A DNA stretch of 63,999 nucleotides, filler included, from Catajapyx aquilonaris (lineage: Eukaryota): the NCBI GenBank assembly GCA_000934665.2. It is 3 parts of 3 records of this genome, joined end to end, with 100 filler letters (N's around TTAATTAATTAA, not from the genome) between each part and the next. Parts side by side here need not be neighbours in the genome. Positions count along the whole stretch, not along the records: positions 43,129 to 63,999 come from KZ539489.1; 2 more parts are not named here. One strand, written 5' to 3'. The notes below the pieces were generated by a model. The model was given only the letters and a program-made list of their open reading frames with translations. It did no database searches and was not told the origin of the DNA. The position numbers and the translations under genes are program-made. How positions within the stretch are numbered: the first letter of the stretch is position 1; each line of letters opens with the position of its first letter. Shown here one piece after another: positions 20,928 through 63,300 of this stretch.

Positions 20928-20983
20928 GTATGTCATGCTTAGTGGGGAGTTACACCAGTATCACTAACACATCATTGTTTCAG

Positions 20984-21467: not shown

Positions 21468-21567
21468 NNNNNNNNNNNNNNNNNNNNNNNNNNNNNNNNN
21501 NNNNNNNNNNNTTAATTAATTAANNNNNNNNNNNNNNNNNNNNNNNNNNNNNNNNNNNNNNNNNNNN
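21468..21567. other. Artificial contig-join linker (N-run + TTAATTAATTAA + N-run)
   Basis: A 12-mer with stops in all six frames, centred in Ns. The same construct occurs at 43029-43128. Confidence 0.85.
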
Positions 21568-43028: not shown

Positions 43029-43128
43029 NNNNNNNNNNNNNNNNNNNNNNNNNNNNNNNNNNNNNNNNNNNNTTAATTAATTAANNNNNNNNNNNNNNNN
43101 NNNNNNNNNNNNNNNNNNNNNNNNNNNN
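43029..43128. other. Artificial contig-join linker
   Basis: N-run + TTAATTAATTAA + N-run. Confidence 0.85.
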
Positions 43129-43900
43129 GAATCGGTCTTGTTGCAGTGCGACCATATGAAAGAGGCCCACACAACCATCAATTTGGCCGACGTGATTCTC
43201 CTAATCATCCAGAAGTGGGGGTTGGGAGAAAGGGTGTGACTGGCAGTATCTGACAATGCGGCAAACATTGTCGAGGCCATACAATTACTTAGGTGGAACC
43301 ACTTTGGGTGTTTTGCCCACACCCTGAATCTCTGATCGTGAAAAAAGCACTGGACGAAGCACAGCCCATTCTTCAAAAAGTGAGTGAAATTGTCACATAC
43401 TTCAAAAAGAGCCCCAAAGCTCTTGAAAAGTTGAAGGAGTCGCAAATGACACATGGGATCAAGCAGCCTCTGACAGTGATCAAAGACGTCCAGACACGGT
43501 GGAACAGTACCTATTACATTCATAAAGCTCGAGACCCACATTCGTACCACGGCGGTACTCCTGAATCCAACTCTGCCAGTGTTTGTGCAGGTAAGGCATG
43601 ATAATAATTTTTATAATAACAATATGCATTCTCTCCAACTTGTGCACTACATATTTTTATCACCCATTCCGTGAACTTATACAATAATAGTTATGCTTAT
43701 ACGAAATAAATCTTCGCTGTTATAAATTCGCATAGCCTGTGGCTATGTATAAGTCGAGTTAGCTTTCAGAGATTCAGAGTTTGGCGGTATCGTAATGTGA
43801 AGCAAAATCCAGCTTTAACTTACGCCACATTTTTGGATCCCCGCTTTAAGAGCAACTTCTTTGACACCATGATACGAAGAGACGTCAAGAAGGGAATCGA
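43129..43900 (+). pseudogene. hAT (Ac/ZBED1-like) transposase fragment
   Basis: AVSDNAANI...CFAHTLNL, YFKKSPKA, DVQTRWNSTYY and ATFLDPRFK, with stops and frameshifts. Confidence 0.85.
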
Positions 43901-44894
43901 GTTTCTCTTGATAAGAATTATGAAAAAAAGAAGCCGAGATGCAGGGAAACCCATCTACTTCGGCCGGCAATGATACTGACCAGCATCTTCAGGTTCAGCA
44001 AGCCGAGAGAAAATTTTCGCTTGCGGAAAGGATTGCCCAAAAGGTTTCCCATCTTCAACCGGCCAGCAACAGCCTCGAGGCAAGAGCTACGGTACAGCTT
44101 CGAAAGTGAGTTATACTAAAGTCTTGACACTCTATATGTGACTCATCTACAATCTCCACTAATATGATAAATTAGACATGACATTTTTGTAACCTATTTG
44201 TCATTGCACTATAATCATAAATTATTTTTCTTTGGCATAGAGATCTTCTGGCTGTAACTGGGAATAAATAACTTCAGAAGTCTTCCTTATAGCTTCCGTG
44301 TTCCATCCATTGGTTTTAACTATAATAACCCTCCAACACCAGATCTTCATGCTCCTTTCTCGTTTTCATGACGTTTATTATTTTTTAATTCAGTGACAGC
44401 CAAGCCCTGCGCAAAAATTGGGAAGTGGAGAACGATCCGAAGCAGGCTCCTGGACCACTCACAAGGTACATTTTCCCAAAACAACAAGCCATCTTCAATG
44501 ATGACTATGAGTTTCAAACCCTGGACCTGGTCTTCGAGGAATGCTCAGCCACTTACCAGGAGCTATCCTCCCACCTCAACTTTGTGATCAACCGCGGGCC
44601 GAGAGGGTCTCTTTTGGGGCAATGTAGCTCACTACAAGAGGCAACTGTGGCTGGCCAACCGTGCCGATGACCTCCATCAACTCTTCTAGTTATGTATAAT
44701 TCCTAATGGGGATAATATGAGAGGAATATTGCGAATGGTGAATATCTGTCCTTAGAGAGTCGTTGATTTTCCATCGAATTTGTTGTCCTAAAATGAATTT
44801 GAGGAACACTCCCCCTTATAAGTTTAAATCTTTTGCTTAAGCAATCGTATGCCTTTGTCTTTTCTAATCCTTTCACCTACTGTACATGTATACC

Positions 44895-44990
44895 CTCCTG
44901 AGACCGAAGTTCGGTGGTTGTCGCGAGGAAAGGTTCTGACGCGTCTCTTTGAATTGTGGGAGGAAGTCAAAACCTACCTGTTCAAGAATG
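44895..44990 (+). pseudogene. hAT Buster/Charlie-type transposase fragment
   Basis: [22 protein letters not shown] signature. Confidence 0.8.
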
Positions 44991-45009
44991 AAGAAAAAGT
45001 GTTGCACTT

Positions 45010-46143
45010 ATCAGATCCAGTTTTGTTAATCCTTGACAACCATGGATCTCACTTGTCTTTAGAAGCTGTTTTATTTTGTCGAAAACGTGGCATTCACATG
45101 TTGTCCATTCCCCCCCCCCNCCCCCCCCCCCACAGCAGCCACAAACTTCATCCACTAGATCGCGGCTTTTTTATAGACTCAAGACGTACTATGCAGAAGG
45201 CTGCAACAACTGTCTCATATGCCACCCAGGAAGGGTCATCACGCAGTACCAAATCGCAGAAATATTCGGCACTGCCTATTGTAGATGTGCTTCAGTAGAA
45301 AAGGCTGTCAAATGGTTTTAAGGTGTGTGGGATTTTGCCTGTTGATCCTGGAGTGTTTACCGACGAGGACTACGCCCCATGTGCGGTGACAGATGTGCAA
45401 ATCGGTGAATCGCCTTCATCTACTGGAAATGCAGTGCCATCTACTTCTGGCACCCGGCACCCAGCAAAGTCATCTGCAGTGCAATGAGTTACAAGCCAAA
45501 TTTGCAGACAAAAAGGGGAAGGACTCGAAGAAGACACGTCGCACAGAGACCACAAGGTCAGTTAAGCGCCTATGACTCCTCGCTGATGACATGACTCATG
45601 CTAATCCAAAAAAGAATAGAAGTGAAACTGGAATCATCATACTCTGCCAGGGCTGTGAGGAGGAATATACAGATCCTCCCTATGAGGACTGGATTGTGTG
45701 CAAGACATGTGAAACGTGGTGGAATGAAGCGTGCTCCTGTTATGGAGGAACAGGCGATTTTATTTGTGACCATCGCTAAGAGATGTAAGAAAAAAGGGAG
45801 TATTACATGTATTTAGATGAAAATATAATTATTCAGATAACTTGCCATGTATTTTTTAAATGTCAGTGTTCCACACAGTCTGTGTAGTCATTTCAAATCC
45901 TTTGTTACATGAGCACTCTTACCCCACGATAAACGCACTTTTGCCCCAAGTGCGTTTGTGCAGCTTTGTGCAAGAAACTTTATTAACAGAAACCTATTCA
46001 ACATTTAAATCAAATTCCTGGTGTATTTAAAAGGAAAGGGTTTGAGTATTATGTGGCATATATTTTAAGGTTCTAAATAGTTTTATAAACGAGGTACATG
46101 AGCTGAAACACTAAAGTGCGCACTCTTGCCCCACTCTACTCTA
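45010..46143 (+). pseudogene. pogo-family DDE transposase C-terminal half with PHD finger and right TIR
   Basis: [12 protein letters not shown]...PPHSSHKLHPLD; CQGCEEEY...WIVCKTCETWWNEAC...FICD; end TTGCCCCACTCTACTC|TA. Confidence 0.85.
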
Positions 46144-46469
46144 TCACTCGCATTTTACCAACCATGGAGTGAGCACACTGAAGAAAGGTAAGATGTGGCG
46201 AAAAATGAAGGTGCCAAATAAAGGACTGGGTGTAAGGATTTCTGAAGAAGAAAAAGAGTAACATTGACTCATTTCTGACTAAGCATTATGATATTCATGC
46301 ATTTCACCAATCATTGCTTGCATTTTATGGGAACAATATCCACATCTCATTTCAACCAATATCATGATAAAACCTGTGACTTAAGAAATTTAAGAAAATG
46401 CTGCTTCCTGAAAATTTGTTAATCACGAATCTAGCTTGGTTCTGAAAATGACCTCCTTACTTGCCCAGG

Positions 46470-47038
46470 GCCGGAGAAGCTTCAGAATTACCTGCAGGAG
46501 CTACTCAATGACAATGACATCGACAGTGTGGAATTCCATGTGTGGAGCCAGACTGACAAGGCAGCAATGACGAAGAGGGTGTCTTCGAATGATGAATCTG
46601 TGGAAGTGCTCTGTGAGAAGGTACTTGCATTGAAGACACATGGGTACGTCGCTCACAAGCAGTCGGAGTACCTGCAATATCGCAAGGACTCCTTGGTGGA
46701 CGGGGAATTCCTGGTGCTGTGCGATTTTGCGGAAAATTATTCTTTTGCTGTGCAGGATGCGATACACGGGTATAGATGGAACAACGATCACTGCACCATT
46801 TTTACAGTTTTTTTTTTACCATAAGGTAGGAGAGGAGTTGCAGCACGGATCTTTGGTGATCCTTTCAAATGACCTGAAACATGACGCAGCGGCAGTGAAC
46901 GTCTTCCAGGGGCTTATCACCGATCATCTGAAGGTGAATTTCAACCCACAAAGGATCGCATACATCACAGACGGAGCAGTCCAACACTTCAAGAACATAT
47001 TCACCTTCTGTAAGCTGCACCGCCATCTGAGGACTTTG
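46470..47038 (+). pseudogene. Sola-type (Sola2-like) transposase fragment
   Basis: DFAENYSF..QD..HGYRW, SNDLKHD, ITDGAVQHFKN. Subgroup assigned from recalled motifs. Confidence 0.7.
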
Positions 47039-47040
47039 GG

Positions 47041-48520
47041 GCCAGGAGCGAAGGGTAAAGGCGATCTCTCACAAAGTTTGGCGAGTAGCGGGGTCGGACT
47101 GGGGGCTGTCCCCCTCAGCGAGACGTGTCATACTGACGAGGGCGCTGATCCCTATGCTCCTTTACGGCGCCGAGATATGGGGTGACGAGGCGCTTGCTGA
47201 CGGGGCCCGCAAGGCCCTTCGTGCTGTACTGCGGCCGTTCATGGTGGCTACTGCACGGGCGTACAGTACCACCCGCAACTCGCTGCTCTCTGTCCTCGCC
47301 GGCGTGCTCCCCCCGGAGCTGTCGGCGGGCGCAGCCTATGAGCCTATGAGTGCAACCTGCAGCTTCTGGAGCAGGGCGCGGCCTTGGCCCCATGCCGTCT
47401 GGCGGACCTGCCACCCCCGTGGCTACGGTTCCTCTTGGACGTAACAGAGATCCGAAGCTGGGAAGCCGATTCACCCCGGGATGTCGACTGCTTCTTCTTT
47501 ACGGATGGATCGGTGAGCGAGATGGGAGCGGGGGGCGCCGTTGTGCTGACGGACCCCTCAGGGCTTGCACTCCTCACCCGGACATGCTCATTCGCACAGG
47601 GGACGGGCATTTTTGACGCAGAACTGCACATGATCCTGCAGGCGATCGAGTGGGCGATTGACCACCCAGCCCTTCCGGGGCCCGCCGCGCCGTGGGCGTG
47701 GCCTCGGACTCGATGTCAGCCCTGCAAGTCCTGGCAAGCCCGGATTCGCTCGACTCCAGAGTGGTCCGGGTGAGGGCCCGGATGCGCGAGGCCCAGAGCC
47801 TGAGGTTCGTCCTCTGCTGGGTCAAGGCGCACGTCGGCATCCCGGGCAATGAGAAGGCGGACGCTGAGGCGAGGCAGGCGGCCGAGCCGGGCGACGACCG
47901 GCTCCGGCTTCCGATTCCTCGGTCGGAGATCAAAAGAGAGGTGAGGCTGGAGTACGTGATGTACTGGTAGGCCGAATGGGAACTGAGCGGCAGAAGGACC
48001 CACCGCGACATCCTCCCCGACGTGCACACGGGACGGCATTTGCATGGACATGTGGCTCGCCTCGTCTCGGGGCAAGGACCCTATCGGGCCTACCTCTCCG
48101 AGCGCGGGGTGAGAAGGGCGCAATGGAACGCGGCGTGTCCATGTGGCGGGGGGGACCAGACCGCGGGACACATACTATGTTCCTGTTCCATCTTGGAAGT
48201 AGAGGAGGCGCGATACCAACTCAAGGAGAGTGTCAAGACGGCCAAGCTGGGGTGGCCATGCAAGCCTTCTGTCTTGCTCACGACGGCTAGGGCGGCCTTC
48301 AATAGTTTCTGCCTCGCCGTGGACCCGTTCCTCCGGGAAGCCAACAAGGAGCTCTCCGGCGGGGACGTCGGGGTGTCAACCCGGTCGGCTGAGGGGTCCC
48401 GTGTCGGCGGCGGGAGTGGTGAAGAGACGGAATGGTCGGGCATGAGCTCAGACGTGGATGAGCGCTGGGACCCGGGCGACGGGCCCGAAACACGGTCGGC
48501 GCGGCGAAGGTTCCAAGGCT
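47041..48520 (+). mobile_element. GC-rich R1/I-group non-LTR retrotransposon 3' part (RT tail, RNase H, CCHC)
   Basis: WGLSP...LLYGAEIW, ARAYSTT...LAGVLPP, FTDGS...FDAEL...SDSMSAL...WVKAHVGIPGNEKAD, CPCGGGDQTAGHILCSC. Confidence 0.9.
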
Positions 48521-48524
48521 CACT

Positions 48525-49183
48525 CCCAATCCCAGACGTAACATCATCACGAGTCGAGCTGGAAGCAAGGGGCAGGCCACGACTGTTACATCGCCCGTGG
48601 AAGCCTTCATGCTGCTTTTCAAGATGACCATCATTGAGCAGATTGTGGAGTGCACGAACATGTACGATAGCCACACGTGTGAAAGGGCACTTTAAGGATG
48701 CACATCATGAAAAAGTGACTGACGTGGATGAGATGGTGGCATTCATTGGGCTGTTATATATATGACGCCATTTCATCATTCCGGCGCCATGAATTACGAG
48801 CGCCTATTTGCCAAAAACGGAAGAGGAGTGGACTTTTTTTATGTGACGATGTCGAGCCAGAGGTACGCTTTCCTCCTTCGTTGCATCAGATTTTATGACC
48901 TGGCAACGAGGGAGGAAAGGAAAAGAGTGGACAGGCTGGCTCCCATACGGGACTTGTGGGAGAATGTAGTGAAAACATTTCCTAAGTACTTTGAGCCCAG
49001 CGAGAACGTCACCATAGACGAGCAATTAAAAAAGTTCCGAGGACGGTGTGGATTCAAGCAATATATACCTTCAAAACCTGGGAAGTACGGTTTAAAGATT
49101 TTTGCACTGACGGATGCGAAATTCCGCGATGTTCTGAAGATGGAAGTCTACACCGGACAACAGCCAGACGGGTCCATATATAA
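48525..49183 (+). pseudogene. piggyBac transposase fragment (no introns within it)
   Basis: IVECTN, EMVAFIGLL, MSSQRYAFLLRCIRF, TIDEQLKKFRGRCGFKQYIPSKPGKYGLKIF. Confidence 0.92.
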
Positions 49184-50027
49184 GGTAGTGTCTATTCAAT
49201 AGTTTCAATAATTTTCATTTTTTCCGGTCCATTTGGTTGATGAACTGACATGGTCACGCGAAAGGGGATTTCAAATGCCCATGAATCAAAAATAATGTAG
49301 CCCACATATTTTTAGGAGCTGGCGTTCAAAATTCAGAATACGAATGCTGCAATAATTTTTTAAATTTAATGTCTCTCTCCGACTGTCTACGGCAAAGTGT
49401 CGGAATAGTAATTTTCAACCTGCCATAAGAAAAACGGCAAATTTTCAGCAGAAATTTTGAGCACCCAAAATACCAAAAGTTAGAATCAAACACCCTCAAA
49501 ATTGTGGCGTATTGTTCAGTTCTCATTCAGTAACAGATCGACAAAGTACACCAATTTAACACCGGTTCATCATTTGGTGAATCGCATCGGTTTTCACCGA
49601 GATCACATTATTATTTGACACATTTTATGACATATTGGGGGTGTGAATTTGATTGGGAATTTGCAATTTTTACCTCGATATTGGACCTGAGAGAGAATCA
49701 CAGGTAGTGCCTCGCTGCTCTTATCGAAGACGAAGGCGCACTTGTTGTCGACAGATAGCGTAATTTCGGGAATACTCTTTACCAGATGAGTGTGTATAAT
49801 TGCAAGTAGACCTAAGTCATGTGTTCTTCGGGCCTTCCCAAGCGGGGCCTGGGGCAGGGGACCCTCTTGCGCCCCCCCCCCCCNCCCCCCCCCCCCCCAG
49901 GGCCGGCATACATTTGTATGGAATTAGCCTATGATATGCACATCCAATCTGTACATCTGTACAGGAACCCTCTTTTTCCATAATGCAATCACCAATTTCA
50001 TTTATAGTACGTATATGTGGATTTGCA

Positions 50028-50360
50028 GAGACCCGCAGGCTTCAAGGGACATGGGGTTTCCAGCTGTGGAGAACTCTATGAGGAAGAGGCGAAGGAGGAG
50101 CCTAACCACGACTTCCACAATCTCCTGATGACTTTGTCGCCAAAACTAGAGATCTAGCGGAATATCGCTTCACAGCAGGAGAGAGATTCTTTCTAGCGGC
50201 CACCGAGTTAAATGGCACTGTAACAGCCGTAATTTTTCAATCCGCAAGGATTGTGAACAGTGCCATGCTGGGAAATGCCCACCTTCATGTTGACGGGACA
50301 TTCCAGACAGTGCCATCCATGTTCAAGAAACTCATTGCATTTCAGGAGCATTTCTTTGAT
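50028..50360 (+). pseudogene. MULE transposase fragment
   Basis: LHVDGTFQTVPSMFKKL matches the MULE DGTF..P..F motif. Confidence 0.65.
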
Positions 50361-52030
50361 AAAAGCAGTTGCACGGGATTTGTTGAATATCGATTCAAAA
50401 CTATGGTGAAAGGCCTCTCACCATCAAAAAAGAAAAATAAGCCCAGACGGAAGACGGCCAGCATAGTTGAGGATGTTCCTTATGATGAGGATGTCCCAAT
50501 TATTGATGACCACATAATGGACGCTGTGAGTATAGCCTCCTAATCATTCCATATAATTATATGGGGCATTCCACGTGAACGTGCACACTTTTCCGACAAA
50601 CATCATCCGATTTTACTGTACTCGGAAAGTGAATCCGAATTTCTTCGCTGCAGTGAACGCACTGGAAGATGGGAAGTGGCTCCACTCATGAATTAGTATT
50701 GTAGGTATCTCCAGATGTATTGACTATCAGAAAATTCCAGGCTTCATATTGATATTTGGTAAAATTCATGAAATTGTTTTTCCAATTAAATATCATATGC
50801 AGATATGGCAGTTACATTTTTTCATTTTCTTTTGGAAGGATTAACAAGAAACCAAATTTTCTGTTTATATGCTTTTTTTCACAATGTAAATAAAAGAATC
50901 AACTTTTCAATGTAATCCGGAAACCTCTAAACATCTGATAATTTGCCAAATTTGTAACTACAAAAGTAAACTGTAAAAAATAAAAAAAAATAAAAAAAAT
51001 AGAGAGTGTGTATGTGTCCCCCAATACAGGCGCACGCCTGAGTACGGGGTAGGAAAAAAAATATATATATGCAGATATAACTTGCTCAGGTCATATTTGG
51101 GTCGTGATTGCCACCGTAAGTTACGGGAGGATTGAGAGAAGCTGAGAAGATCAGTGGTTTAGACTTATAAATGACCTATGACATTCATGTACCATGCAAT
51201 TCATAATTTTTTAACTGTCTTTGAAATGCAGATGATGTGAAAGCCCTGCTAGCACTTGATGTGCTGAAACTGCGGAACAAGCGAGGGAGAAAGAGGAGGA
51301 GAACTGGAATGTAGAACAAAAAAGAGGAGGTACTTTCTGTACACATTTATGAATATGCACAGGCTATATGGGCTTACATCAGCAGACCAAGTTTAACATG
51401 CAATATTACAACCTGTATAACATATAGAAGAATTACATTATGTGGACATAATTAACATGCACTGTACCATTAACCATTTAATCCATTGTACCATTTAATC
51501 CATTGTACCATTTAATGATGATAAACCGAAATGAAAACTGACAACATTCACACAACAGGGCCATCATTTACAGGAGTTATACTCTATATACATGCACTGT
51601 TTGCATAGTATAATACTGTATGTTTTGATGTGATTTCCAGGTTCACTGCCTGATTTTAGTTAAACACTGTCTATTTTTCCTGTTTTAGAGTGACTTCTCT
51701 GCCTTGCAAGGTGCTGGGCTGCCTAGAGGCACCAGTATTTTTCTGGGACAGACACACTGCATATTTGTAGACAACATAAATGGAACGATAACTCTCGCAA
51801 AGGAGACGTCTCTCGAGAAGGCATGCGTCCTGTGTTTTGGCCTATATTACATAAAGCATGTAGACTACCCGATTGCCTACGGGAAGTTTCTGTCCATGTT
51901 GCAATTAGCTCTGGTGCATAATGACAAGATTGTGCCTGGAGTGATGACACAAAAATTCGCTACTGCCATGGAGGCCCTAGAATTTATTCTACATCCGCAG
52001 CAGATGAAGAACAAGAAGCTGGCCAAGAAG
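50361..52030 (+). pseudogene. Multi-exon CACTA/EnSpm accessory-ORF-like (SAMD3-like) fragment
   Basis: TGFVEYRFK...|GTGAGT; last exon EKACVLCFGLYYIKHVDYP...FLSMLQ resembles the YY.FN..YP motif; GT-AG boundaries. Confidence 0.5.
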
Positions 52031-52197
52031 CGGACAACTCTTTGCAAAGAGGGACTGGCACACCTCATGTTGCTACCTATCAATTCAAGGTTTGTTTCAT
52101 AAAAATAATATGTTCATAATGAAGCAGGGCCTACATAATACTATAACCAGATATGGGGGTATTGCTAGTGTGCTAATGAACGTAATGGTGTTACTCC

Positions 52198-52605
52198 CAG
52201 GTACGAACCCATGGAAAGGAAGTGTCTGTGTGCAAGAAAGCTTTTGCGAGTATTTTTGGCATCAGCAACGATCGGGTTGCCCGAATTTGCAGTCATTTAG
52301 CACTACTTGGGGTTTCCCCTAAGGATAAACGCGGAAAACATCAAGAACAGACCACGGCAAAATCCAGAGCCCTTGATTGAGGCTATAGTGCAGCACATTA
52401 AGTCATTTAAGGCCCGTACAACACGCAACTCTCTGAGGAAAAACCAAGGCAGAGTGTAGGCCTACCTTCCAGAAACTCTGAATGTGTCAAAAATGCACCA
52501 AATGTTTCTTGACGAATGGAGGATACAAGTTACCTACAAGGTGTATTACAATGTATTTACTACCAGATTCAATGTCTCCTTCGCATATCCACGCTTTTGA
52601 CACGT
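52198..52605 (+). pseudogene. Sola1-like transposase N-terminal fragment
   Basis: VCKKAFASIFGIS...DKRGKH...HIKSF...YLPETLNVSKMH...YYNVFTTRFNVSFAYPRFDTC. Confidence 0.75.
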
Positions 52606-52921
52606 GTAGAGAAAGTGTACGTCCAGAAGCCCAAAACTCTTCCAGAGAAGATCCGGGAGCGCTTTGCAACAATTTCTCCGGACTTGTGTGCCAAAGTGTG
52701 CAGGTCTGTCCAGGGTCGACTACGTGAGTGCTTGGGCAGTGATGGCAGACAGGTTTTGTGACCTCGTGTACAGTCAGACATCACACAGCATCAGGTATGA
52801 AAAATACCTCGATGTATTATCAGAGTATCAGCTATTGTGTGATTGATTCAGTTTCAAATTAATAAATCACTGAAGCCGGAAAAAATTCTCAAACCTGTTA
52901 GACTACTTCTGGTCCACTCTG
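52606..52921 (+). pseudogene. Tc1/mariner transposase C-terminus with right TIR
   Basis: EKVYVQKPKTL...CAKVCRSVQGRLRECLGSDGRQ; ends GGTCCACTCTG|TA. Confidence 0.65.
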
Positions 52922-53859
52922 TACAAGGAGTTGTCATCACATCATTTCAGCACTCTAATATGCCATAGTTTAAGGTATGGATCAGAATCACCGTGGAAAA
53001 GCTTGAGAATGTCAGCAGCATTGATGCCAAGCAAGAGTGGGGCAACTTCAAACGCCAGGGAAACTTTTATTCAGCCACAACTGTGGCAAATATATGCCAC
53101 GTGAAGCCAGCTCTTTCCCTACCCTTATGTAGATGGGGCTGCAATTGTGAAGAGACTGTAGGCTGGAGCACCAGAGTGCCAAGTTGCAAAGCATCGTGCA
53201 GCACGTCTAAACGACGTCCAAGAAGAGAGTTTTGCACAGTTACCTGCTGGCAAGGAATCCGCCCTATTTGAGGTGGCCATGAATGAAAATGTTCTTTTAC
53301 AGCCATTTGTGGAAACAAAATTTTACAGGAGCTTCGAGAGTGGCAGTGGTTGTCTGAAAATAGAACTGTTTCAGTTAAGCAAGCTGCAGGCGTGTGACAG
53401 ACTTATGAAAATTGTGCGACAGTTACAGTGGAGGGTGCCAAAAGTTTATGTCCTGAGACACGTGACCAGAGTGGTGCAAGATGGATGAACGATAGGAACA
53501 TTAGGATAACAGGATCATTGTACACATGTTCCCCGTGAGAAGAAGACCTGGGAAGAAAAAGTGGAGCGTTTCATGGGAGTTAAGAAGTTCTCTGGGAACA
53601 CTGCCACACGCTACGGAACCCACCAAGAAAAATTTGCCAGAGAGATACAGGGCCACTCTTCTTCCAGGGGCAATTTTTACCTGGATTTTTACGTATGCCC
53701 CTGGCGACATTTAGGTAAAGCGGTCAACACAATTATTTTGAGCATATTTTTGATAGCTATTGATTTCTTTGCCTAATCAGACTGCATCAATATGGATAAT
53801 GACACTGGTCATATTTCTTCGTTAAGTGAAGGGCCAGCAGAGTATGATTCCTATCTTTG

Positions 53860-55040
53860 ATTTGCTCGATGAGAGTGCCAAAGGACAAGACGTGCTTATT
53901 GCTTTTATAAGAGAGATGTAGATTTTTGTATAAGATCTGACTGTGTCCGTGACTACGACTCGGAGGGCTTTTACCTGTCACACACAGCTAACGGAGCACG
54001 GACGGATATATTTAAACACCCCCAATCCGACGACTGGAACGATATGTCAACTAGTGCTACCTCAAGCGTGCCAGCATCTCTCTATGCACTAGTCAAGAAG
54101 ATTGTTTATGGGCCAGGCACACTATCCGACGACGCACATGATGACCCTCATGACCACGCCGCGCCGTTTCCACACTGGCCCCACTCTTGTCATTTCATGC
54201 TGTGAAAAGAGGCACATGGGGGTGAGACACGACATCATGAAAGGAATAGGGAGACTCCTATGCCTGTGTATATCGCAGCGAAGCTGCACGGACAGACATG
54301 AAAAATCTGGTTGACGTTGCATACAAGCTTCGAATCAGTATCTCGTACGACAGACTGCGAAGCATCCTGACAGAAAAGGCAAACAAGGCATGCGAAAGGT
54401 ACCACGCCGAGGGTGTGGTGTGCCCATCTTCCCTGCTCGTGGCCTCTTCACCACAGCAGCAGTCGAACTACAGCCAAAGACGCATTCCACGGCACAGCAA
54501 TCTCTATTATGCAGCATGCAATGATTGGGCAGATAGGTAATTTCGACAACTTGAAACAAAATATACACGCACTTTCACGCTTGCTATATTATAATTATTC
54601 GCAGGTGAACCATATAGTGAAATTCCACAGGTCATTATTAACGACCGAGAGAATGTGAAGGATCCCCCTGATGACTATGCCATGGTTGAGCCCTGTTTCC
54701 TCCATGGAAAAATAGCAACAAGCCTTCCCTCTGACTGCTGCAAGGTGGACTTGGATACGGACCCAATCCCTTTCCTGCAGGAAATGGACTGGTTGGAGAG
54801 AACGACAGTGGAAGCACAGAGCGTGACATGGGCTGTTCATCACTCAAAGCCTGACGAAATTGAAAAATCCGTTACGATAATGTCCGTGCTGTCAGTATTC
54901 TACGACTCTGGCAATACCAGGGCTACGATGCACCATGCTATGAATATTGTTTCTAAGGTGGTTAAGCACCTAAATGGAGAACAGATACCTGTCATGGTCA
55001 TAGATCAACCTCTTCACTCCCTCTGCAAACAGATCCAATC
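53860..55040 (+). pseudogene. Academ-like transposase fragment
   Basis: ETPMPVYIAAKLH, LRISISYDR, GVVCPS, AFHGTAISIMQH, TMHHAMNIV...LNGEQIPVMVIDQPLHSLCKQIQ. Superfamily assigned from recalled motifs. Confidence 0.6.
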
Positions 55041-56559
55041 TAGCGAGAGATGGGCACGGGAAGTGCTTGATTCGGACCTGCGACACGGACGTTGTGGTTA
55101 TGCTGTGTCCTGTGTTGGTAAGGTGTCCAGGCTTGAGGCTAGTGGATGTGAAGGAGAAGCTGGTTCAATATTTAAATTGCACCAGTGCTAAACTCTTAAA
55201 TATCCTCAGAACCTCCGCAGCTGGATGGTGAGCAGCTTTTGGATCAATCCAAGCAATCTAGAACTCCGGAGCCCTACAAGGCTGCCCTCCTGTGGCTTCT
55301 GGGACTCGCAGCATTGTTGCGAGAGCCGAACATCATCCACAATGCCCAGTCACCAGGAGTAAGCATATTTTTAAATATAAGCAGCATTTAAACATGGCAA
55401 CTATTAACCATACTGTTACTTTTTTGCAGGCCTTCGCAGGAGAGGCAGTCTTGGTGTGGGACCGGCCATCAGATCCATGGACGCAAGTTTGCAAAGTGAA
55501 CTAGTTTGTAAATGGCGAACTTCTTGTGGGAGGGATGGAGGACTTGATGGACGCTATGACAAGTGCCATTGCTTGCTCATATGTAGTGGATATCAAGTAT
55601 GTGCCAGAGTGTCAGAAGACATTCCTTCCTACAGCGGTATGCTGTGGGAATCCCGCCAAATGTTTCCCCCTCCCTAAGTATGTGGAGATCTTAAAGAAAA
55701 AGTTGGAGTAGGCCTAATTGTATGATTTGTATCACTTCAATACAACTTTTTTGATAGCTGGAGGACTGTAAATCTTTTCATTTGGGGGGCGTCACAGTTC
55801 CCAACAGCAGTCAATCACAATACATCCGCCTGCTGATTGGGTTCCCGAGCTGTTTCCGTAGGGGGGGGGGGGAGGTGGTGATGGTGGTACTGGGCAGGCC
55901 AGCAAATGGCAGTGGGGAGAAGCCCCCAACATCACCAACCCTAACGCTAACTTCCCGTTCTTCAGATTAACTGATGTGTTGGACATTTCCCATGAGCTAC
56001 TGCCAGAAAGAATTCTTCAGGTTATTATTATGGGCGTCGTCGTCGTCATATTTGTTGTTATTGTTAAATGTACACCATTACATTGCAGGCCATTGTTTTG
56101 GAGACCCAACAGATATGCCAGGAAAACTGGACTCGCAACAACAACAAAAAAGGGCATGAAGGACTGGGAAGACCTCAAGCTCATTGAGTTCGAAGCCTTC
56201 CTTGGGCTCACTATTGCCATGGGCATAGCGGGGAAGAGCGACGTCAATGATTATTGCCCATGGCTAGGAATGATTGGTTACGAAACAGAATATCTTGGCA
56301 CAGGTACCTAGACATCGTGGCAGCCCTGCACATTAATAACAACCGTAAAATGCTGCCTAAGACCAATCCAAACCGCGACAGACTGTTCAAGGTAATGTCC
56401 TTCTACTTACTTACCAGGTCCAGAGATTTTCACTTAGGACCGACCATGTAAGATGAATAATTATACCATGGACGAACCTGGAGGTACAGGTACTCTTATC
56501 ATGAGGTACAGACGAGGAAACAGGCACCGGAGTGAGAAGAAATGGGGCCATAGGCTCCT

Positions 56560-56760
56560 TAAGAGTGGTCAGTATGGGTTTGACAGTAACTCGTCCCTTG
56601 ATTTGGGTCGTACGGAGAGGGTTCCCCACGTCATCAATACAGGGGACGCTCTTCCGATTAAGCAGCCATTCCGGAGGGTGTCGCTCCAGAAGAAGAAGCT
56701 CATTGCCGTCCAGGTTCAGGTTATGTCCAGACAAGGCTGCATCAGAAGATCAGTCATATC
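56560..56760 (+). pseudogene. Gypsy/Ty3 pol fragment (region just before RT)
   Basis: DLGRTERVPHVINTGDALPIKQPFRRV...QVQVMSRQGCIRRS. Confidence 0.75.
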
Positions 56761-56764
56761 GCAA

Positions 56765-57536
56765 GGAACATTATGGGCATGAGCTGAATCTTGGTTTGCT
56801 ACCACTCAGCGCCAATGACAAGGAACTAATTGCGCACCAGTTGAAGGCCAAGTTAAGTAATGACACTATCTTGCATGATGCACGGAAACTCAATAGTGGT
56901 GATGGCGTCTTGCGTAGAATGCACTTACTAACCAAGTATGATATCAAAAACATCGGTAAGTCGTATGGGATTGCAAGGCATGGCAATCGCTGCGATGACG
57001 ATGCCACCAGTCTTTTCATGTGGATGAAGGAAATGGAAGACACGGGTGATAAGAAGCCAGTGCTCCTTGCAAATGAACAACAGGGTGCTAATAGCAATGA
57101 CTTAGCTGATGGCGATTTCATTCTTGTCATCCAAACTGAATTCCAACGTCGCATGATGGAAAAGTTTGCACCAAGTAAGGTGGTATTCCTTGACGGAGCA
57201 CATGGGACCAACAGCTATGATTTTCAGTTGACTTCTATTGTCGTAAGAGAAGAGTTTGGTGAAGGTATCCCGGTTGCCTGGTGCCTTAGTAACAGGGAAG
57301 ACCAGGCCATGTTCATGTGCATGCCAGGACTGGAGATATTGAACCTGCACGTGTTATGTCTGATGGTGCTAATCAGTATTACAAGGCATGGAAGCACGTG
57401 TTCAAGGGTAATCCACATGAGCTTCTGTGTGCATGGCATGTGGATAGAGCTTGGCAAGGTAAACTGCACATGATGAGAGATAAGGAGATTCGGCAAAAAA
57501 CCTTACACATTTTTGCGTGCAGTTTTGGAAGCGAGT
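56765..57536 (+). pseudogene. MULE transposase fragment, copy 1
   Basis: HYGHE, DDATSL, VFLDGAHGTNSYDFQL, EFGEGIPVAWCLSN, MSDGA, LLCAWHVDRAW. Confidence 0.9.
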
Positions 57537-57954
57537 CATCATCATCATCATGAACCTATTGACTTAACCCATAACCCACAGATGATAACTGCCACGGTCA
57601 TACCCTCTCAAGTTGCACGAACCAGCAGAACACCACGTTCCTCAGCCCCACGTGTGACTCCCGCCTCCACCACCACCATCCCTGCTTATATTTCATTACC
57701 TTTGAAAAAAAACAAGTACAGGTCGACTGTGGAAAAACCCCCCTGAGTCTCCGATTCAGCCCGTAGAGCTCCCTGCTGAAAACACACTCCCACCAAAAAA
57801 GAGAAAACTGATTCCTGTCCCGCCCCCTCCAGAGAGCACCCCCGTCACTGATTCTCAAGCTTCTTCCAGATCGTCATCCTCGCGATCACCTGATTGAATT
57901 AAAGGGTTCAAGCTAATAGGTGAAAAAGCAATCTATTTAAAGAGGCTCAACACC

Positions 57955-58920
57955 TGTGCAGTGGAAATATCACTCAGGATTGACCCCACCCTCGAGAACA
58001 CCCCCTTTCTTGAATGGTTCAGTTCTGTGCTTTACAACATCCTTGCTTATATAAGAGGTCACGGGATGAATATTGGCTACAGGGACATGATACAGCTCGA
58101 GTTGACACGCAAAGGGGGAACCGGGGTTGACACCGTATTCATACATCCGAGAAGGGCCTCTCAGCTTGACACCAATGCGATACTCCTGCAGGTTGAATCT
58201 GCTGCAGTCGCAGAGAGGTTCAGATGTAATTGCTCCAAGTGGCGGGGTTTTGCACATTAATGTCATACATATTTCAGCAATATCTGGGTCTGGGCGTGAT
58301 CAGTACAGAATATTTAGGAATATGAAATTTGAGGAGAGGCGCCGGGCTAAAACATCATTTATCTACATTGAAATCAATGATAATATGTGCTTAGCCAGGG
58401 CACTTGTCTTGGATATAGCCAATGCACAGCGCAAGGCAAATCTTATGTCTCGGGAAGAGACGAAGGCGGCGGAGGAATTAACTTTGGAAGCACATGTGGA
58501 GATTCCTGCGGGTGGGTGTAGTCTAGAGGAGGTACGGTTATATCAAAATCACCTCCAGGGTTACAGGATATGTGTATTTTGTGACGAAATGGATGAGTTT
58601 GTTTATATGGGCCCAGAGTCGAGGTGGACCATCCGAGAATTAACCTATACCTATACTAGTCTAGAGATGAGCACCATTACTGCCCATGTTTCTCCGGCGC
58701 ATCTTTGCTCTTGTGCAAGTACTTGTGTGAATCATGCATGAAGGCGTCAGAGAGAGAGGGAGGGGGAGGGAGGGGGAAGGAGAGGGAGAGGGGAGAGAGA
58801 GACAGAGAGCATTTTTGTAAAGGTTTTTGCATAGCATGTCAAAATTCTCGGTAGTTGTTCTGCTGGTGCCTCTGATAAAATCTACTGTAAAACTTGTGCG
58901 AGGGATTTTCACCTACTGAA
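57955..58920 (+). pseudogene. Polinton/Maverick (adintovirus-like) protein-primed DNA polymerase N-terminal fragment
   Basis: LLQS...LHINVIH...GSGR, SFIYIEINDNMCLARALVL, GGCSLEEVRLYQNHL.GYRICVF, followed by CxxC zinc-finger remnants. Confidence 0.75.
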
Positions 58921-61900
58921 GGTTAAAGTGCGCAATCACCTACACACCAATCCCAAATTCGAATACACCACTGAACTAAAAATCCACCAATTGCGGATCG
59001 GGGGGAAAATGACCGTGGAAGAAGAAATGGCAGATGCATTAACTGCATTTGCGAGCTCGTCACGGAACTCCAAAACCGCCTGCCCGAAAATGTGGACACC
59101 CTCATTCTCATGGCTTCCTTGTCACCCAAAAACTGCCTGAATACAGGATGTTAAGGAAATAGGTGTTTTATTTCTACACATTCGAGATACGGAGTGAAAG
59201 ACAGTGAGACAGGAGGAACTGCGGTGGGTGAGCAGGCAGTACCGGACGGTAAACAGGACCAGTGGGCAGTAAAAAGAGAATTACTGGAAAGAGGACCAGA
59301 TGATGGACCAGGCAACAGTACAGCCATCAGCAAATACGGGGGGTTAAGGTCAGTGAGTGGCACACATAATCTGCGCACGCCGAGTGAGGACCACCGAACT
59401 TTATTTGCGCGCCAAAATACCGCCCAACAATAACCCAGAAGGCCCGCTGCCATCTAGTTTCGACACGGCACACCGCCCGACCACTAGGGACAACTCGTGG
59501 AACTTGAAGGAGAGCAACATGTGTAGGCCAATCCACCAACCCNNNNNNNNNNNNNNNNNNNNNNNNNNNNNNNCCCCACCCCCCCCCCCCCCCCCACCCG
59601 GACGTCTAAGATGACAGGCTAGAACCGATCCATACCGTGAAGGTCAACCGACTAGCCCATTAAACCAACCGGTAACAAGGTAGACAACCAGACGCATTGG
59701 CTGGGCATAGCGATAATATTATGAGCGTGACCAAGAGGCATCTTGTGTGTTGACGCCTGTCTCTTCCCCCCTGCATTTTCAACTTGCTTTGGGTCAACAA
59801 GTACGCTGCCTGCTGAAGGACCCATAAGATACGCCCTGTACCGCGTGATCAATAATATCTAAAATGAAAAATTATTCCCTCTCTCACAGGCCCGCCCTCT
59901 CCTGAATATAGTGGAGCCAGAAACCTTTCACGAGGGCAAGAATTAAGCATCGACGAGATGATGCTGGGCAGCAAGGCGAGGTGCGGGGTCATGTTCATGC
60001 CGGATAAACCGACACGTAGGGGTAATTGATTGCCTTTATTAGCATGTGATCCAGGATTCCCATGATCAGAGTTATCTCACAGCCAAATAAATTGCAGAGA
60101 AATGTTTACCGAGACTAATATATTAAATATTGAGAATAAATCTTTTCCCAATGTGTCCACCCAGATGCTGGAACACTAGAAATATAGCCTTCCACCTTGA
60201 AGTATCCTAATTTTCTGTGTATTTTCCTCCAGGGATAAAGCTGTGGGTCCTCTGCGATGCCAAAACTGGGTACTGCATCCGATTTCAGATATATATACTG
60301 GACAAGTGGATGGCAAACCCGAGCGTGACCTTGCATACAGGGTGGTGCAGGATCTCTTGGAGGGGTACAAGGGCAAAGCCCACCATGTACACATGGATAA
60401 ATTCTACACTTCTACAAAGCAATGTTCACGTATTGCAAGGAGTGTATGGCACAGCACGTTCTGCATCCCCTTTCGCATGATAAAGGAGGTAGTCATCGGG
60501 ATGGCCACCTGCGCGTATACTTGGCATAAGAGGGTAGCGTCACGTGCATTTGCAAAACGCCAACTTAAAAAAGGAATCCCAGCCATTGTTGGCTCATGTG
60601 CTTCATATGCACTAGGAACATATTTAGGAGACATAACGTGGTATCACATGGTTGTGGTGGGATTGGTCAACATATTGATTATTAATGCCGTAAAGGAGTG
60701 TCCTACATTCCGTAACTTGAAACCGAAGACGACACTGTAAAAAATATGCCTGTATCTTGCTGTATATTCACGGTATTATAAACTCACATAATTCTGTGAT
60801 ACCAAGGAAAATTGCAAGTAACTCGAAAACCACACTTTACCAGCACATGTCAAATTTTGTCCATATGTGAGGCCTCATATTACATAACAATTTCGGTGTA
60901 ATGGATTTTTAAAGTACTTGCATGATAAGATTGTGATTTTCAAAATTCCTAATTCTGTGAATATCCACTTAATTCTGTGATAGTATATCCCCAATTATGT
61001 GATACTGGTCTTTTCCCAATAAAAACAACCGTAACATGTCAAAAACCCATGTATTTGCCCCTGTGTTACGATAATTATGTGAAACAATGAAAATCAAAAT
61101 GTTGTGTTACTAATCTGAATCTGAGGAACAACTTATACACATGAAGATATCATCATCATTTTGATCATAAATCCCCTGACAGTGCTCATGATACACTGTA
61201 ATTGATGTACCAGCTATGTCGTACTTCCCAGCTAGTACATGTGGCCTTAGCCAGTACATAGGTAGGCCGCAACCGGTACAGAGCCTCGTGTCCTAGCTGT
61301 AGACGGTACGCAGGTGGTCCACACTTCCAGATGGAGGTTCCAAAGGAGGTGTCACCCTAGCACGCCTAAACCACCCATCCACAAACCTGTAGCGGTATGC
61401 GAGTACAATAAGTACATGGGGGGTGTAGACTACATTGACCAGCTGTTAAGCTACTATCCTATTATCGAGGAAAGCAAGGAAGTGGTGGTAGAAAATTTTC
61501 TGGCGCATTTTGGACATAGCAGTGACCAATGTCACGATTATAGTGCGCCTGAAGGAAATTGGAAAAAAAACCAAGAGCATTCGGGGGGACTTGGCCTATG
61601 CACTTATCGCGCCGTGGATGGCGGAAAATCAATCCCCCGCCCTCTATGTCCAGTCCCATCCCCTACCCGGAAGAGTTCCATTCACCAAAAATTGCAGATT
61701 GTGAGAATCAGGCCAGAGGTTGAGGATGATGTGCCGCTGGCAGGAACGGGGGACATGGCGTTTGTTGTAGAAGCTCTGTAGAAGTGGCTCAAGCCTGTCT
61801 ATGCACAGACGCTTAGAGCTACGTGCAGCCCAAGTGACAGCACATTCCGTGCGGACAAATCGGTAATTAAAGCTCATGCTTCCAGTCGAAAGGACATTAA

Positions 61901-61991
61901 TAGGAGCAGAGATGTTAATATGAAGAATCAGAAACATCCCCAATAAATAATATTACCATTGTTTCTGCTCTACTTTTTTAAATAGGTCACC

Positions 61992-62130
61992 ATGCCACGA
62001 ATCTATAAGCGCCTCACAAGCAGAACTTTCAGAAGTCACGAAGTGGTGAAAAGAGTGGCATTGGCAGATCTAAGTGGAGCGTGCAGTATTAGAAACAATG
62101 CCCAAAAATGGGGCATTAAGAAGTCACTAA
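61992..62130 (+). pseudogene. pogo-type N-terminal HTH (psq-like) fragment
   Basis: MPRIYKR...SGACSIRNNAQKWGIKKSL. Confidence 0.55.
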
Positions 62131-62261
62131 TATTTCCACCCATTTCTATACACTGTAGGTGGAAAGAAACCCTGCAATGGTCTTCCTGGAGTGGCCTCCG
62201 AAGAGTGTTGTTTGCAGTTAAGGATTCGGCATGTAAGTGTAGTTGCTGATCTCAACCCTAT

Positions 62262-63300
62262 TGAAGGAAATGGAAGACAAGGGTGATAAGAATCCAGTGC
62301 TCCTTGCAAATGAACAGGGTGCTAATAGCGATGGCTTAGCTGATGGCGATTTCATTATTGTCATCCAAACTGAATTCCAACGTCGCATGATGGAAATGTT
62401 TGCACCAAGTAAGGTGGTATTTCTTGACGGAGCACATGGGACCAACAGCTATGATTTTCAGTTGATTTCTATTCTCGTAAGAGATGAGTTTGGTGAAGGT
62501 ATCCCAGTTGCCTGGTGCCTTAGTAACAGGGAAGACCAGGCCCTGTTGATTCAGTTTTTTCTTGCTGTGCATGCCAGAACTGGAGATATTGAACCTGCAT
62601 GTGTTAGGACTGATGGTGCTGATCAGTATTACAAGGCATGGAAGCACGTGTTCAAGGGTAATCCACGTGAGCTTCTGTGTGCATGGCATGTGGATAGAGC
62701 TCGGCAAGGTAAACTGCACATGATGAGAGATGAGGAGATTCGGCAAAAAACCTTACACATTTTTGCGTGCAGTTTTGGAAGCGAGTGATGTAGGGTCATT
62801 GCTACAGACTTGGAGCAGACGCTAACGCTAACATGAAGATAGAGGCATTCCATAAGATCCTCAAACACTGCTATTTGCACGGGATTCACAACCGCCGAAT
62901 CGACAAGCTCATTGACAGGCTTATGGGCATGCGGAATGGAACGGCTCACCAAAGGCAAGGTGACACATAAAATTCGACTGATAAGGTCGCGCCATAAGAA
63001 CAGCAACGGGATGGACATGAGCACAATTCGTACTGAAGGAGATAGATACACTGTACCTTCACAGTCAGGGTCAGGCATAGAGTATTCGGTAGAGCGAACA
63101 GGGGTGACTTGTGCATGATGCCAAGAAAGGTGTTCAGCATGTTCTATCTGTATCCATGAGTTCACTTGCACCTGCAAAGAACGACTCATTCTTGGTCTCA
63201 TCTGCAAGCATGTGCACCTGGTTTGCAGATTTATGGAGGGCAGTCCTGACCCAACAACTCCTGTTCCCTCTGTTGCTGCAGACCAGTACACAAATACTGG
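62262..63300 (+). pseudogene. MULE transposase fragment, copy 2, with SWIM zinc finger
   Basis: Close paralogue of 57026-57536, followed by CSACSICIHEFTCTCKERLILGLICKHVHLV. Confidence 0.9.

What the first reader, a model, noticed from the sequence alone, without database searches (positions are those of the whole stretch)
43129..63300. Candidate unistrand (flamenco-like) piRNA cluster built mainly from DNA-transposon fragments
Seen: at least 16 recognisable decayed coding fragments packed into ~20 kb (hAT x2, pogo x2, Sola x2, R1, piggyBac x2, MULE x3, CACTA-like, Tc1, Academ-like, Gypsy, Polinton), all on the + strand. I found no minus-strand TE ORF and no SINE here, whereas the first 43 kb has 12 SINE copies and TEs in both orientations. 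If orientations were random and independent, 16/16 on one strand has probability 2 x 0.5^16, about 3e-5. Established: Drosophila flamenco and similar clusters collect co-oriented TE fragments and are transcribed antisense to make piRNAs, but flamenco is dominated by Gypsy LTR elements. Inference: a minus-strand-transcribed antisense archive against many DNA-transposon superfamilies and a Polinton would be an unusual cluster type.
Basis: partly seen in the sequence, partly recalled or inferred. Interest (0 to 1): 0.85.

Follow-up and report, generated by a model that had tools for sequence, protein, structure and literature searches.

The report
One-strand transposon graveyard, piRNA untested
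About 21 kb of this arthropod-type genome is a dense heap of broken transposon genes, mostly DNA transposons, that nearly all point the same way, which is how a locus that makes transposon-silencing small RNAs looks, but whether it makes such RNAs was not tested.

Summary
The layout is real; the function is unproven. In 43,129 to about 63,700, 11 fragments have tool-supported homology and all read on +. Eleven more + fragments rest on motifs I recall. I found one probable minus-strand exception, a PHD-finger 3' end at 61.1 kb, so the tally is 11:1 by tools or 22:1 in all, not 16:0. A homology-free test agrees (22 windows + against 1 -), more weakly once base skew is removed. SINEs number 12 left and 0 here. 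Pieces are truncated, keep introns, and 14 of 24 junctions are bridged by unitigs. The left border is an artificial 100-bp gap, so the contrast with the left 43 kb is not shown to be contiguous. It is not a flamenco member, since Gypsy enrichment fails. It most likely works, or worked, as a minus-strand piRNA source (0.55). DNA-transposon- and Polinton-rich piRNA clusters are already known in molluscs (PMC6128900). The scan noted the same pattern on other pieces of this genome (27 findings; unchecked).

The parts
43029..43128 (.). Artificial assembly gap (44 N, 12-nt linker with stops in all frames, 44 N); left border of the array
   Evidence: same kind of gap at 21,468-21,567
43129..43970 (+). 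hAT transposase fragment (catalytic-core part), frameshifted, with a probable intron
   Evidence: 35 related metagenome loci; tblastn E to 3e-29; relatives L008 and L012 carry zf-BED and Dimer_Tnp_hAT; HMM of 16 relatives hits three + stretches
44850..45015 (+). Second hAT-like (Buster-type) fragment, fused coding-to-coding to the next piece
   Evidence: motif recalled, read output; no tool support
45016..46141 (+). pogo-type element, 3' part: DDE_1 piece, C-terminal PHD finger, 3' region and TIR-like end
   Evidence: Pfam DDE_1 E 9e-4, 0.0027 on 45,020-45,118 and PHD E 0.18; end read by eye
46435..47030 (+). DDD-type transposase fragment (Sola-like label recalled)
   Evidence: highest score of the homology-free test; homologue searches empty
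47031..48560 (+). GC-rich non-LTR retrotransposon 3' part with RNase H (R1-like label recalled)
   Evidence: Pfam RNase_H E 1.5e-5; phrog_531 E 1e-5; GC 0.61
48570..49190 (+). piggyBac-type transposase fragment 1
   Evidence: Pfam DDE_Tnp_1_7 E 2e-26 and 4e-4
50106..50350 (+). MULE-like fragment 1
   Evidence: motif recalled; no tool support
50813..51063 (.). Non-coding repeat with relatives elsewhere in the genome; orientation unknown
   Evidence: loose ends at 50,813 and 51,063
51716..51991 (+). Fragment of an unnamed protein family (CACTA-associated label recalled)
   Evidence: P0018 E 1.7e-12, tblastn 5e-21; no Pfam family
52186..52607 (+). Sola1-like transposase, N-terminal part only (residues 43-171 of a 523-aa homologue; no catalytic core)
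   Evidence: 87 homologues, best E 1e-28; 8 of 10 scanned homologues carry DUF7869; coverage; Sola1 name recalled from motifs in P0009
52608..52925 (+). Tc1-like 3' end with a TIR-like end; relatives elsewhere in the genome
   Evidence: 6 contigs at 52,918, loose ends at 52,608 and 52,925; family and strand from recalled motif; no tool support
52969..53650 (+).
   Evidence: by eye; no tool support (not among the best 150)
53873..55138 (+). Academ-like transposase fragment: residues 285-653 of a 1,501-aa homologue, then a weak match near 1,255-1,283 (probable internal deletion); intron 54,537-54,604 kept
   Evidence: 62 homologues, best E 2e-31; Atlas DUF6589-like 0.98 at low recognition; Academ name recalled from P0004
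55200..55708 (+). Second CACTA-associated-like fragment with a probable intron
   Evidence: by eye; no tool support
55900..56400 (+). piggyBac-type fragment 2
   Evidence: Pfam DDE_Tnp_1_7 E 5e-4
56500..56760 (+). Gypsy-like pol piece (protease-RT linker)
   Evidence: motif recalled; no tool support
56765..57539 (+). MULE/ZSWIM transposase fragment 2
   Evidence: Pfam ZSWIM1-3_RNaseH-like E 2e-9, MULE 0.007; 8-9 contigs at 56,807
57560..57897 (+). Low-complexity piece resembling a non-LTR ORF1 start
   Evidence: by eye only; weakest call of the list
57898..58738 (+). Polinton-like polymerase N-terminal fragment
   Evidence: motif recalled; no tool support
58835..59137 (+). Non-LTR ORF2-like linker piece
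   Evidence: by eye only
59890..60420 (+). piggyBac-type fragment 3, first part; intron 60,022-60,232 kept
   Evidence: Pfam DDE_Tnp_1_7 E 1e-4 and 8e-3; exons colinear with fragment 1
60775..61217 (-). Probable exception: 3' end of a PHD-bearing DNA transposon on the minus strand, inside piggyBac fragment 3; no AATAAA or ATTAAA on its sense strand
   Evidence: Pfam PHD_2 E 0.011, 0.0024 trimmed; sequence and signal list
61380..61600 (+). piggyBac-type fragment 3, second part
   Evidence: Pfam DDE_Tnp_1_7 positions 294-324, E 0.14, continuing positions 155-227 of the first part
61995..62230 (+). pogo-like N-terminal HTH piece
   Evidence: by eye only; no Pfam hit
62262..63700 (+). MULE/ZSWIM transposase fragment 3; 62,262-62,789 is 92% identical to 57,025-57,539
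   Evidence: Pfam ZSWIM E 2e-10, MULE 2e-8

Best explanation
The region is, or was, part of a long non-coding unit transcribed on the minus strand and processed into primary piRNAs. Transposons inserted here at DNA level over time. Large deletions then removed most ends and non-coding parts and fused coding pieces directly. Pieces lying antisense to the transcript were kept because they yield guides against the mRNA of their families, while sense pieces and SINEs were lost or never fixed. The result is a compact antisense catalogue of mainly DNA-transposon genes. SHOWN: co-orientation, high coding density, truncation, DNA-level capture (introns kept), real junctions, relatives of some pieces elsewhere in the genome. 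INFERRED: minus-strand transcription, piRNA production, selection as the cause, tissue and promoter.
For: Tally 11 + to 1 - by tools, 22 to 1 with recalled motifs. Homology-free amino-acid test in 240-nt windows: 64 of 85 favour + (p 3e-6), 22 called + and 1 -; left side 75 of 175, 7 + and 11 -. About 65% of bases lie in coding-fragment segments against about 11% on the left. No paired TIRs or LTR pairs. Sola1-like and Academ-like pieces cover only 43-171 of 523 and mainly 285-653 of 1,501 residues. Introns are kept in piggyBac 3 and the Academ-like piece. 14 of 24 junctions are bridged by listed unitigs. Tc1-like and MULE pieces have several related contigs (6 at 52,918; 8-9 at 56,807), so potential targets exist. 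The two MULE copies differ by 3 synonymous and 18 non-synonymous changes, so they are not conserved as proteins. A 2:1 antisense bias, the strongest seen for human genic TE families (PMC3517506, passages), gives 22 of 23 with p 0.001. The same layout gives minus-strand piRNAs in a slug cluster (PMC11615739, passage), and SINEs are the one class not enriched in An. gambiae clusters (10.1101/2022.08.22.504762, passage).
Against: The mechanism rests on architecture alone. On tool-supported pieces only, 11 of 12 is not significant scan-wide (about 8 expected in 1,246 windows) and fits a 2:1 genic bias (p 0.054). With base skew removed the homology-free test weakens: 49 of 85 (p 0.19; Wilcoxon 0.006; 23 + and 6 - called) with the TE model, 55 of 85 (p 0.009; 26 and 10) with the receptor model. 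Poly(A) signals are not depleted on the minus strand (9 seen, 8.8 expected), and the non-coding gaps show no base skew, so there is no independent trace of minus-strand transcription. One sense-oriented piece is probably present. Over 53.1-55.1 kb only the locus's own contig was laid at 80% or more, so those pieces may have no present target, though contig sets drop records. 5.7 of 20.9 kb is unassigned and may hide non-coding ends of either orientation.
Confidence: 0.55

Rival explanations
1. An ordinary long transcribed region (large intron, lncRNA or read-through zone) on the minus strand. Sense-oriented insertions are purged because their splice and poly(A) signals disturb the transcript; no piRNAs are needed.
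For: Antisense bias of genic TEs is established (PMC3517506, PMC3088655; passages). 11 of 12 is compatible with a 2:1 bias (p 0.054). The right end is outside the window, so a flanking gene cannot be excluded. On the left, the LINE 5' piece inside the aminotransferase intron is antisense to that gene.
Against: 22 of 23 is unlikely at 2:1 (p 0.001). It does not explain 65% coding-fragment density or the absence of SINEs, which are common in the gene-bearing left part. No host exon was detected on either strand.
Confidence: 0.2
2. A heterochromatic TE heap whose strand bias is chance plus ascertainment: the borders were chosen after the fact and half the labels were read by eye.
For: 11 of 12 is expected about 8 times in 1,246 windows. 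Eleven of 22 + labels have no tool support. The MULE pair may be one event. The left border is an assembly gap.
Against: The strand-symmetric scans found only one minus-strand candidate. 22 of 23 survives the window correction (0.007). The left side behaves as a null in the same tests.
Confidence: 0.1
3. Cargo of a large mobile element (Helitron or Pack-type) that captured TE gene pieces in its own orientation.
For: Coding-to-coding fusions without ends and kept introns fit DNA-level capture. Stepwise capture of gene fragments by Helitrons is described (PMC3288121, abstract and passages). That captured pieces are co-oriented is my recall; the passages read did not show it.
Against: No Rep or helicase domain, no hairpin-plus-CTRR 3' end in my scan, no paired TIRs. 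Junction-spanning unitigs are long and unbranched, unlike a multi-copy element. 95% of maize helB and 83% of helA elements are under 10 kb.
Confidence: 0.08
4. Assembly chimera: unrelated repeat contigs strung together.
For: The array starts at an artificial gap and holds a 31-N gap at 59,543-59,573. 10 of 24 junctions are not bridged by the listed pieces, and no piece spans the whole stretch.
Against: 14 of 24 junctions are bridged by unitigs nearly identical to the window, most seen in all three DNA runs of one sample (table cut, 1,420 pieces not shown). These runs may be the assembly's own source. A scaffolder has no reason to co-orient ORFs.
Confidence: 0.05

Closest known systems
Drosophila flamenco and flam-like unistrand piRNA clusters (PMC10643416; passages read)
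   Same: Many TE fragments on one genomic strand in a non-coding locus; candidates were first spotted from this layout.
   Different: Bias there is driven exclusively by Gypsy LTR elements, the flam-syntenic loci outside the melanogaster subgroup are 227-1,085 kb, and piRNAs and follicle-cell expression are shown. Here 9 of 11 tool-supported pieces are DNA-transposon-type, one short piece at most is Gypsy-like, 21 kb is visible and no RNA was examined.
Generic unistrand piRNA clusters of other animals: Trichoplusia ni (PMC5844692, passages), slug and planarian clusters and mammalian piC-DoGs (PMC11615739, passages)
   Same: One-strand precursor antisense to packed TE fragments; the slug example has minus-strand piRNAs over densely packed plus-strand fragments.
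   Different: T. ni unistrand clusters are only 57% antisense by insertions (79.7% by bases), much weaker than here. The TE classes of the slug cluster were not given in the passage read.
Molluscan piRNA clusters enriched in DNA transposons (PMC6128900; passages read)
   Same: Clusters rich in hAT, Kolobok, Dada, Polinton and Academ elements.
   Different: The snail clusters are described as enriched for young, low-divergence elements; the passages read give no strand tally of the inserts. Here the pieces are short, decayed and co-oriented.
Mosquito core piRNA clusters made by read-through (10.1101/2022.08.22.504762; passages read)
   Same: Unidirectional arthropod clusters with antisense inserts; An. 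gambiae clusters are enriched in all TE classes except SINEs.
   Different: Aedes core clusters are depleted of TEs and trap non-retroviral viral sequences; an upstream driver gene is not visible in this window.

Membership tests
flamenco / flam-like cluster | TE fragments mostly on one genomic strand | tested here: met
   11:1 by tools, 22:1 with recalled motifs; homology-free test 22:1
flamenco / flam-like cluster | Enrichment of LTR/Gypsy elements, which carry the strand bias | tested here: not met
   No RT, integrase or gag hit among 290 ORFs; no LTR pair; one unconfirmed 260-bp Gypsy-like piece. Definition from PMC10643416
flamenco / flam-like cluster | Size of hundreds of kb | tested here: inconclusive
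   21 kb visible between an assembly gap and the window end; no genome held
flamenco / flam-like cluster | Expression in ovarian somatic cells from its own Pol II promoter | not testable with these tools
   Needs stranded RNA and tissue data
unistrand piRNA cluster (any animal) | 23-31 nt, 1U-biased piRNAs from one strand (sense/antisense ratio above 10 in PMC11615739) | not testable with these tools
   Needs small-RNA reads; assembled contigs cannot hold them
unistrand piRNA cluster (any animal) | Non-coding locus packed with TE fragments on one strand | tested here: met
   About 65% in coding-fragment segments; no host gene domain; no Rfam match
unistrand piRNA cluster (any animal) | Fragments have related elements elsewhere in the genome to target | tested here: inconclusive
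   Several related contigs on the Tc1-like and MULE pieces; only the locus's own contig over 53.1-55.1 kb
read-through cluster (piC-DoG, mosquito core type) | Upstream gene on the transcribed strand | not testable with these tools
   The predicted 5' end lies beyond 63,999; no genome held
Helitron or Pack-type capture element | Rep/helicase gene, hairpin-CTRR end or paired TIRs | tested here: inconclusive
   None inside the region, but both outer ends are hidden
Polinton fragment | Homology to protein-primed polymerase B or other Polinton genes | tested here: inconclusive
   No hit in Pfam, PHROGs, the word-index search or viral contigs; the label is recalled and these searches are weak for a 100-aa decayed piece

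The most novel reading that the evidence does not exclude
This genome keeps many separate one-strand antisense libraries made almost wholly of the coding parts of DNA transposons, compacted by deletion and selected for orientation as strictly as flamenco is for Gypsy. They would act as primary-piRNA memory against cut-and-paste elements and Polintons, including families with no close copy left. In six literature searches I saw no paper describing clusters with near-complete co-orientation of DNA-transposon coding fragments; the library misses most subscription papers and I read no supplements.
Probability: 0.22. Interest if true: 0.7.

Novelty: new variant of a known kind. Interest (0 to 1): 0.42.

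Why it matters
If the locus makes piRNAs, it shows that strict antisense trapping, known for Gypsy in flamenco, can also act on DNA transposons in another arthropod lineage. It would also give a sequence-only way to predict such clusters in species without small-RNA data, and a test of whether coding parts are kept on purpose. If it is only a long intron or a repeat heap, it is ordinary. As it stands it is a well-supported candidate of a known class with an atypical cargo.

Tried and rejected
No whole genome is held, so no flank, background strand tally or species TE library. Sequencing runs: no RNA holder listed; this says nothing on expression. Run X5 (other study, kind unknown, 0.02 of words) covered 9 of 30 bins, mostly repeat pieces; uninformative. 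The gap at 43,029-43,128 was outside the laid stretch and is untested. Word-index protein searches for the Sola-like piece and the Polinton-like piece found nothing, nor did a viral-contig scan for the latter. PDB sequence searches for hAT 1, Gypsy-like, Tc1-like and hAT 2 pieces gave nothing relevant. PHROGs on 149 ORFs of 62 aa or more gave only RNase H and one chance-level hit. Pairwise comparisons within the window did not link Tc1-like, CACTA-like or MULE 1 pieces to other copies. The one window called minus (ORF 49,606-49,881) had no Atlas or Pfam hit. Pfam at E<=0.05 on 113 short ORFs in the unassigned gaps (56 +, 57 -) gave the PHD piece plus four unrelated chance-level hits. Rfam: none. 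Minus-strand poly(A)-signal depletion and skew in non-coding gaps: not found. Retro-copy (mRNA) capture was rejected because introns are kept. Domestication was rejected because frames are broken and the MULE pair diverged neutrally. I looked for the last aminotransferase exon beyond the 21,468 gap as a control on such gaps and did not find it by motif; inconclusive. Look-ups of earlier findings near this place, by sequence and in relatives returned nothing. PMC9341512, PMC5041409 and PMC3088655 (passages) added little; PMC11400887 was seen only as a search listing.


Full report
CONTEXT. The window is animal DNA. An intronless ionotropic-receptor-like ORF lies at 1,712-3,667 (-) and exons of a class-III aminotransferase at 13,974-21,269 (+); 'arthropod-type' is my inference from the receptor. 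No whole genome is held. The finding starts at the first base after an artificial 100-bp gap (44 N, a 12-nt linker, 44 N), of which there is a second at 21,468-21,567. The sharp contrast between the left 43 kb and the region therefore coincides with an assembly join and is not shown to be a natural border.

STRAND TALLY BY HOMOLOGY. I scanned all 290 stop-to-stop ORFs of 40 aa or more in 43,129-63,999 (138 +, 152 -) against Pfam at E<=0.01. Nine ORFs from seven elements hit TE or retroelement domains, all on +: DDE_1, RNase H, three piggyBac-type pieces and two MULE/ZSWIM pieces. Three other hits at E about 0.003 are chance-level. A full HMMER search with one + frame of 51,689-55,186 read through stops as X gave 306 hits at E<=0.001, the best 150 falling in three groups. 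tblastn of those 150 proteins against both strands of the whole window gave three clusters, all +. Their names, Sola1-like and Academ-like, come from motifs I recall in P0009 and P0004; Pfam gives only DUF7869 for 8 of 10 Sola1-like homologues and nothing for 9 Academ-like ones. The first hAT piece has 35 related metagenome loci, two of which carry zf-BED and the hAT dimerisation domain. These libraries were seeded from + pieces, so only the Pfam and PHROGs scans are unbiased. The tool-supported count is 11 on +. Eleven more + pieces are read by eye from the translations and got no tool support; they include the Polinton, Gypsy, Tc1 and second CACTA-like pieces. Looking for exceptions, I scanned short ORFs on both strands of the 5.7 kb of unassigned gaps and found one: half a PHD finger at 61,113-61,217 (-), E 0.011 or 0.0024 trimmed, followed by stops, subterminal repeats and a TIR-like end near 60,775. 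It sits between the two parts of piggyBac piece 3 and has no AATAAA or ATTAAA on its own strand.

STATISTICS. 11 of 12 gives p 0.006 and 22 of 23 gives 6e-6; multiplied by the 1,246 noted windows of this genome these become about 8 and 0.007. A homology-free score of amino-acid likeness in 240-nt windows favoured + in 64 of 85 windows (p 3e-6), with 22 called + and 1 -, against 75 of 175 and 7 + to 11 - on the left; the receptor ORF was called correctly as -. That score partly reflects purine skew. With each strand's own composition as background it fell to 49 of 85 (p 0.19, Wilcoxon 0.006; 23 + and 6 - called) or 55 of 85 (p 0.009) with a second model, while the left stayed neutral. Adjacent windows are not independent. 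The skew itself lies in the coding-like part (AT skew 0.086) and not in the gaps (0.020, p 0.26). Twelve SINE copies lie left of the gap and none right (p 0.0085). Coding TE pieces on the left are 3 + and 3 - (partly by eye).

ANATOMY. By hand-set borders, 23 segments cover 13.5 of 20.9 kb (65%), median 509 bp, against about 11% on the left. No element is complete: there are no paired TIRs or LTRs. The Sola1-like piece holds residues 43-171 of 523 and the Academ-like piece 285-653 of 1,501, with a weak jump to about 1,255. Several junctions run from coding to coding sequence with no terminal repeat, which points to large deletions after insertion. Introns are kept: the exons of piggyBac 3 are colinear with piggyBac 1, and those of the Academ-like piece with P0004, once the GT-AG intron is set aside. 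Capture was therefore at DNA level. The two MULE copies overlap in 515 bp at 92%, extend in opposite directions, and differ by 3 synonymous and 18 non-synonymous changes, as expected of neutral decay.

IS IT REAL DNA. Four DNA runs of one sample hold 80-87% of sampled words. Unitigs from three of them cover all 30 bins, and nine long near-identical pieces bridge 14 of my 24 approximate junctions; the table was cut and no piece spans the whole stretch. These runs may be the source of the assembly, so this excludes mis-joining by the assembler at those junctions but is not an independent sample. Related contigs pile on the Tc1-like end and the MULE pieces, whereas 53.1-55.1 kb drew only its own contig at 80% likeness.

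MECHANISM. The simplest process that sorts unrelated families by coding strand, keeps coding parts and tolerates no SINE is selection on a long transcript from the opposite strand. In a piRNA source, antisense coding pieces are useful and non-coding ends are not. That is my best reading (0.55). I found no independent trace of such a transcript: minus-strand poly(A) signals are at expectation (9 against 8.8). The main rival is an ordinary long intron or read-through zone (0.2). Genic antisense bias reaches about 2:1 for human LTR families (PMC3517506, passages), enough for 11 of 12 (p 0.054) but not for 22 of 23 (p 0.001), and it does not explain the coding density. Chance with ascertainment (0.1), capture by a large mobile element (0.08) and chimera (0.05) follow.

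COMPARISON. It works like a unistrand piRNA cluster if it is transcribed as predicted, but it is not a flam-like locus: that bias is exclusive to Gypsy (PMC10643416, passages). Unistrand clusters are widespread. T. ni has 286 in ovary with 57% antisense insertions (PMC5844692, passages); a slug cluster gives minus-strand piRNAs over packed plus-strand fragments (PMC11615739, passages); An. gambiae clusters hold all TE classes except SINEs (10.1101/2022.08.22.504762, passages); molluscan clusters are enriched in hAT, Kolobok, Dada, Polinton and Academ (PMC6128900, passages). DNA-transposon cargo is thus not new. The near-complete co-orientation of such cargo is what I did not see described (searches; no supplements read, and they may hold cluster compositions).

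EARLIER FINDINGS. The scan noted the same layout on other pieces of this genome: 27 findings hold the search words (more listed), and Piwi-clade genes are noted too. These are unchecked notes on DNA I could not see. They gave me the long-intron and read-through rivals and the genome-wide novel case, and are not counted as support.

VERDICT. Observation largely confirmed with one exception and an overstated p-value; interpretation plausible and untested; new variant of a known kind; interest 0.42.

Noticed in passing
window 1,712-3,667 (-): Intact intronless 652-aa ORF with a ligand-gated ion channel domain (Pfam Lig_chan E 7e-12), like a divergent ionotropic receptor.
   Followed up: no
window 13,974-21,269 (+): Class-III aminotransferase exons up to profile position 368 of 403 (GABA transaminase-like by recall). 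The last exon was not found by motif beyond the linker gap at 21,468-21,567, a hint that such gaps can hide sequence.
   Followed up: partly
window 16,890-18,953 (-) and 10,735-11,789 (+): LINE 5' piece (ORF1 and endonuclease-like, by eye) antisense in the aminotransferase intron, and a LINE 3' piece upstream of the gene.
   Followed up: no
window 188-41,244: Four SINE families with different tRNA-like heads share one short 3' tail before a 3-nt repeat; 9 of 12 copies are on +.
   Followed up: partly
window 60,420-60,740 (+): Open frame after piggyBac 3 with a hydrophobic stretch and no family hit (TMEM169 E 0.28 only); origin unknown.
   Followed up: partly
window 44,389-44,667 (+), 50,380-50,540 (+), 59,170-59,330 (+): Protein-like open stretches on + with no assignment; not counted in the tally.
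   Followed up: no
window 49,816-49,915: G/C-rich hairpin-like motif and poly-C resembling a hAT or MITE terminus (recall); it could face the minus strand.
   Followed up: no
window 59,664-59,701 and about 61,200-61,334: Short non-coding repeats with many related contigs and loose ends; orientation unknown.
   Followed up: no
window 11,996-12,453; 25,819-26,452; 28,472-28,757: Paired inverted arms of 84-200 bp, probably MITEs, in the left part only.
   Followed up: no
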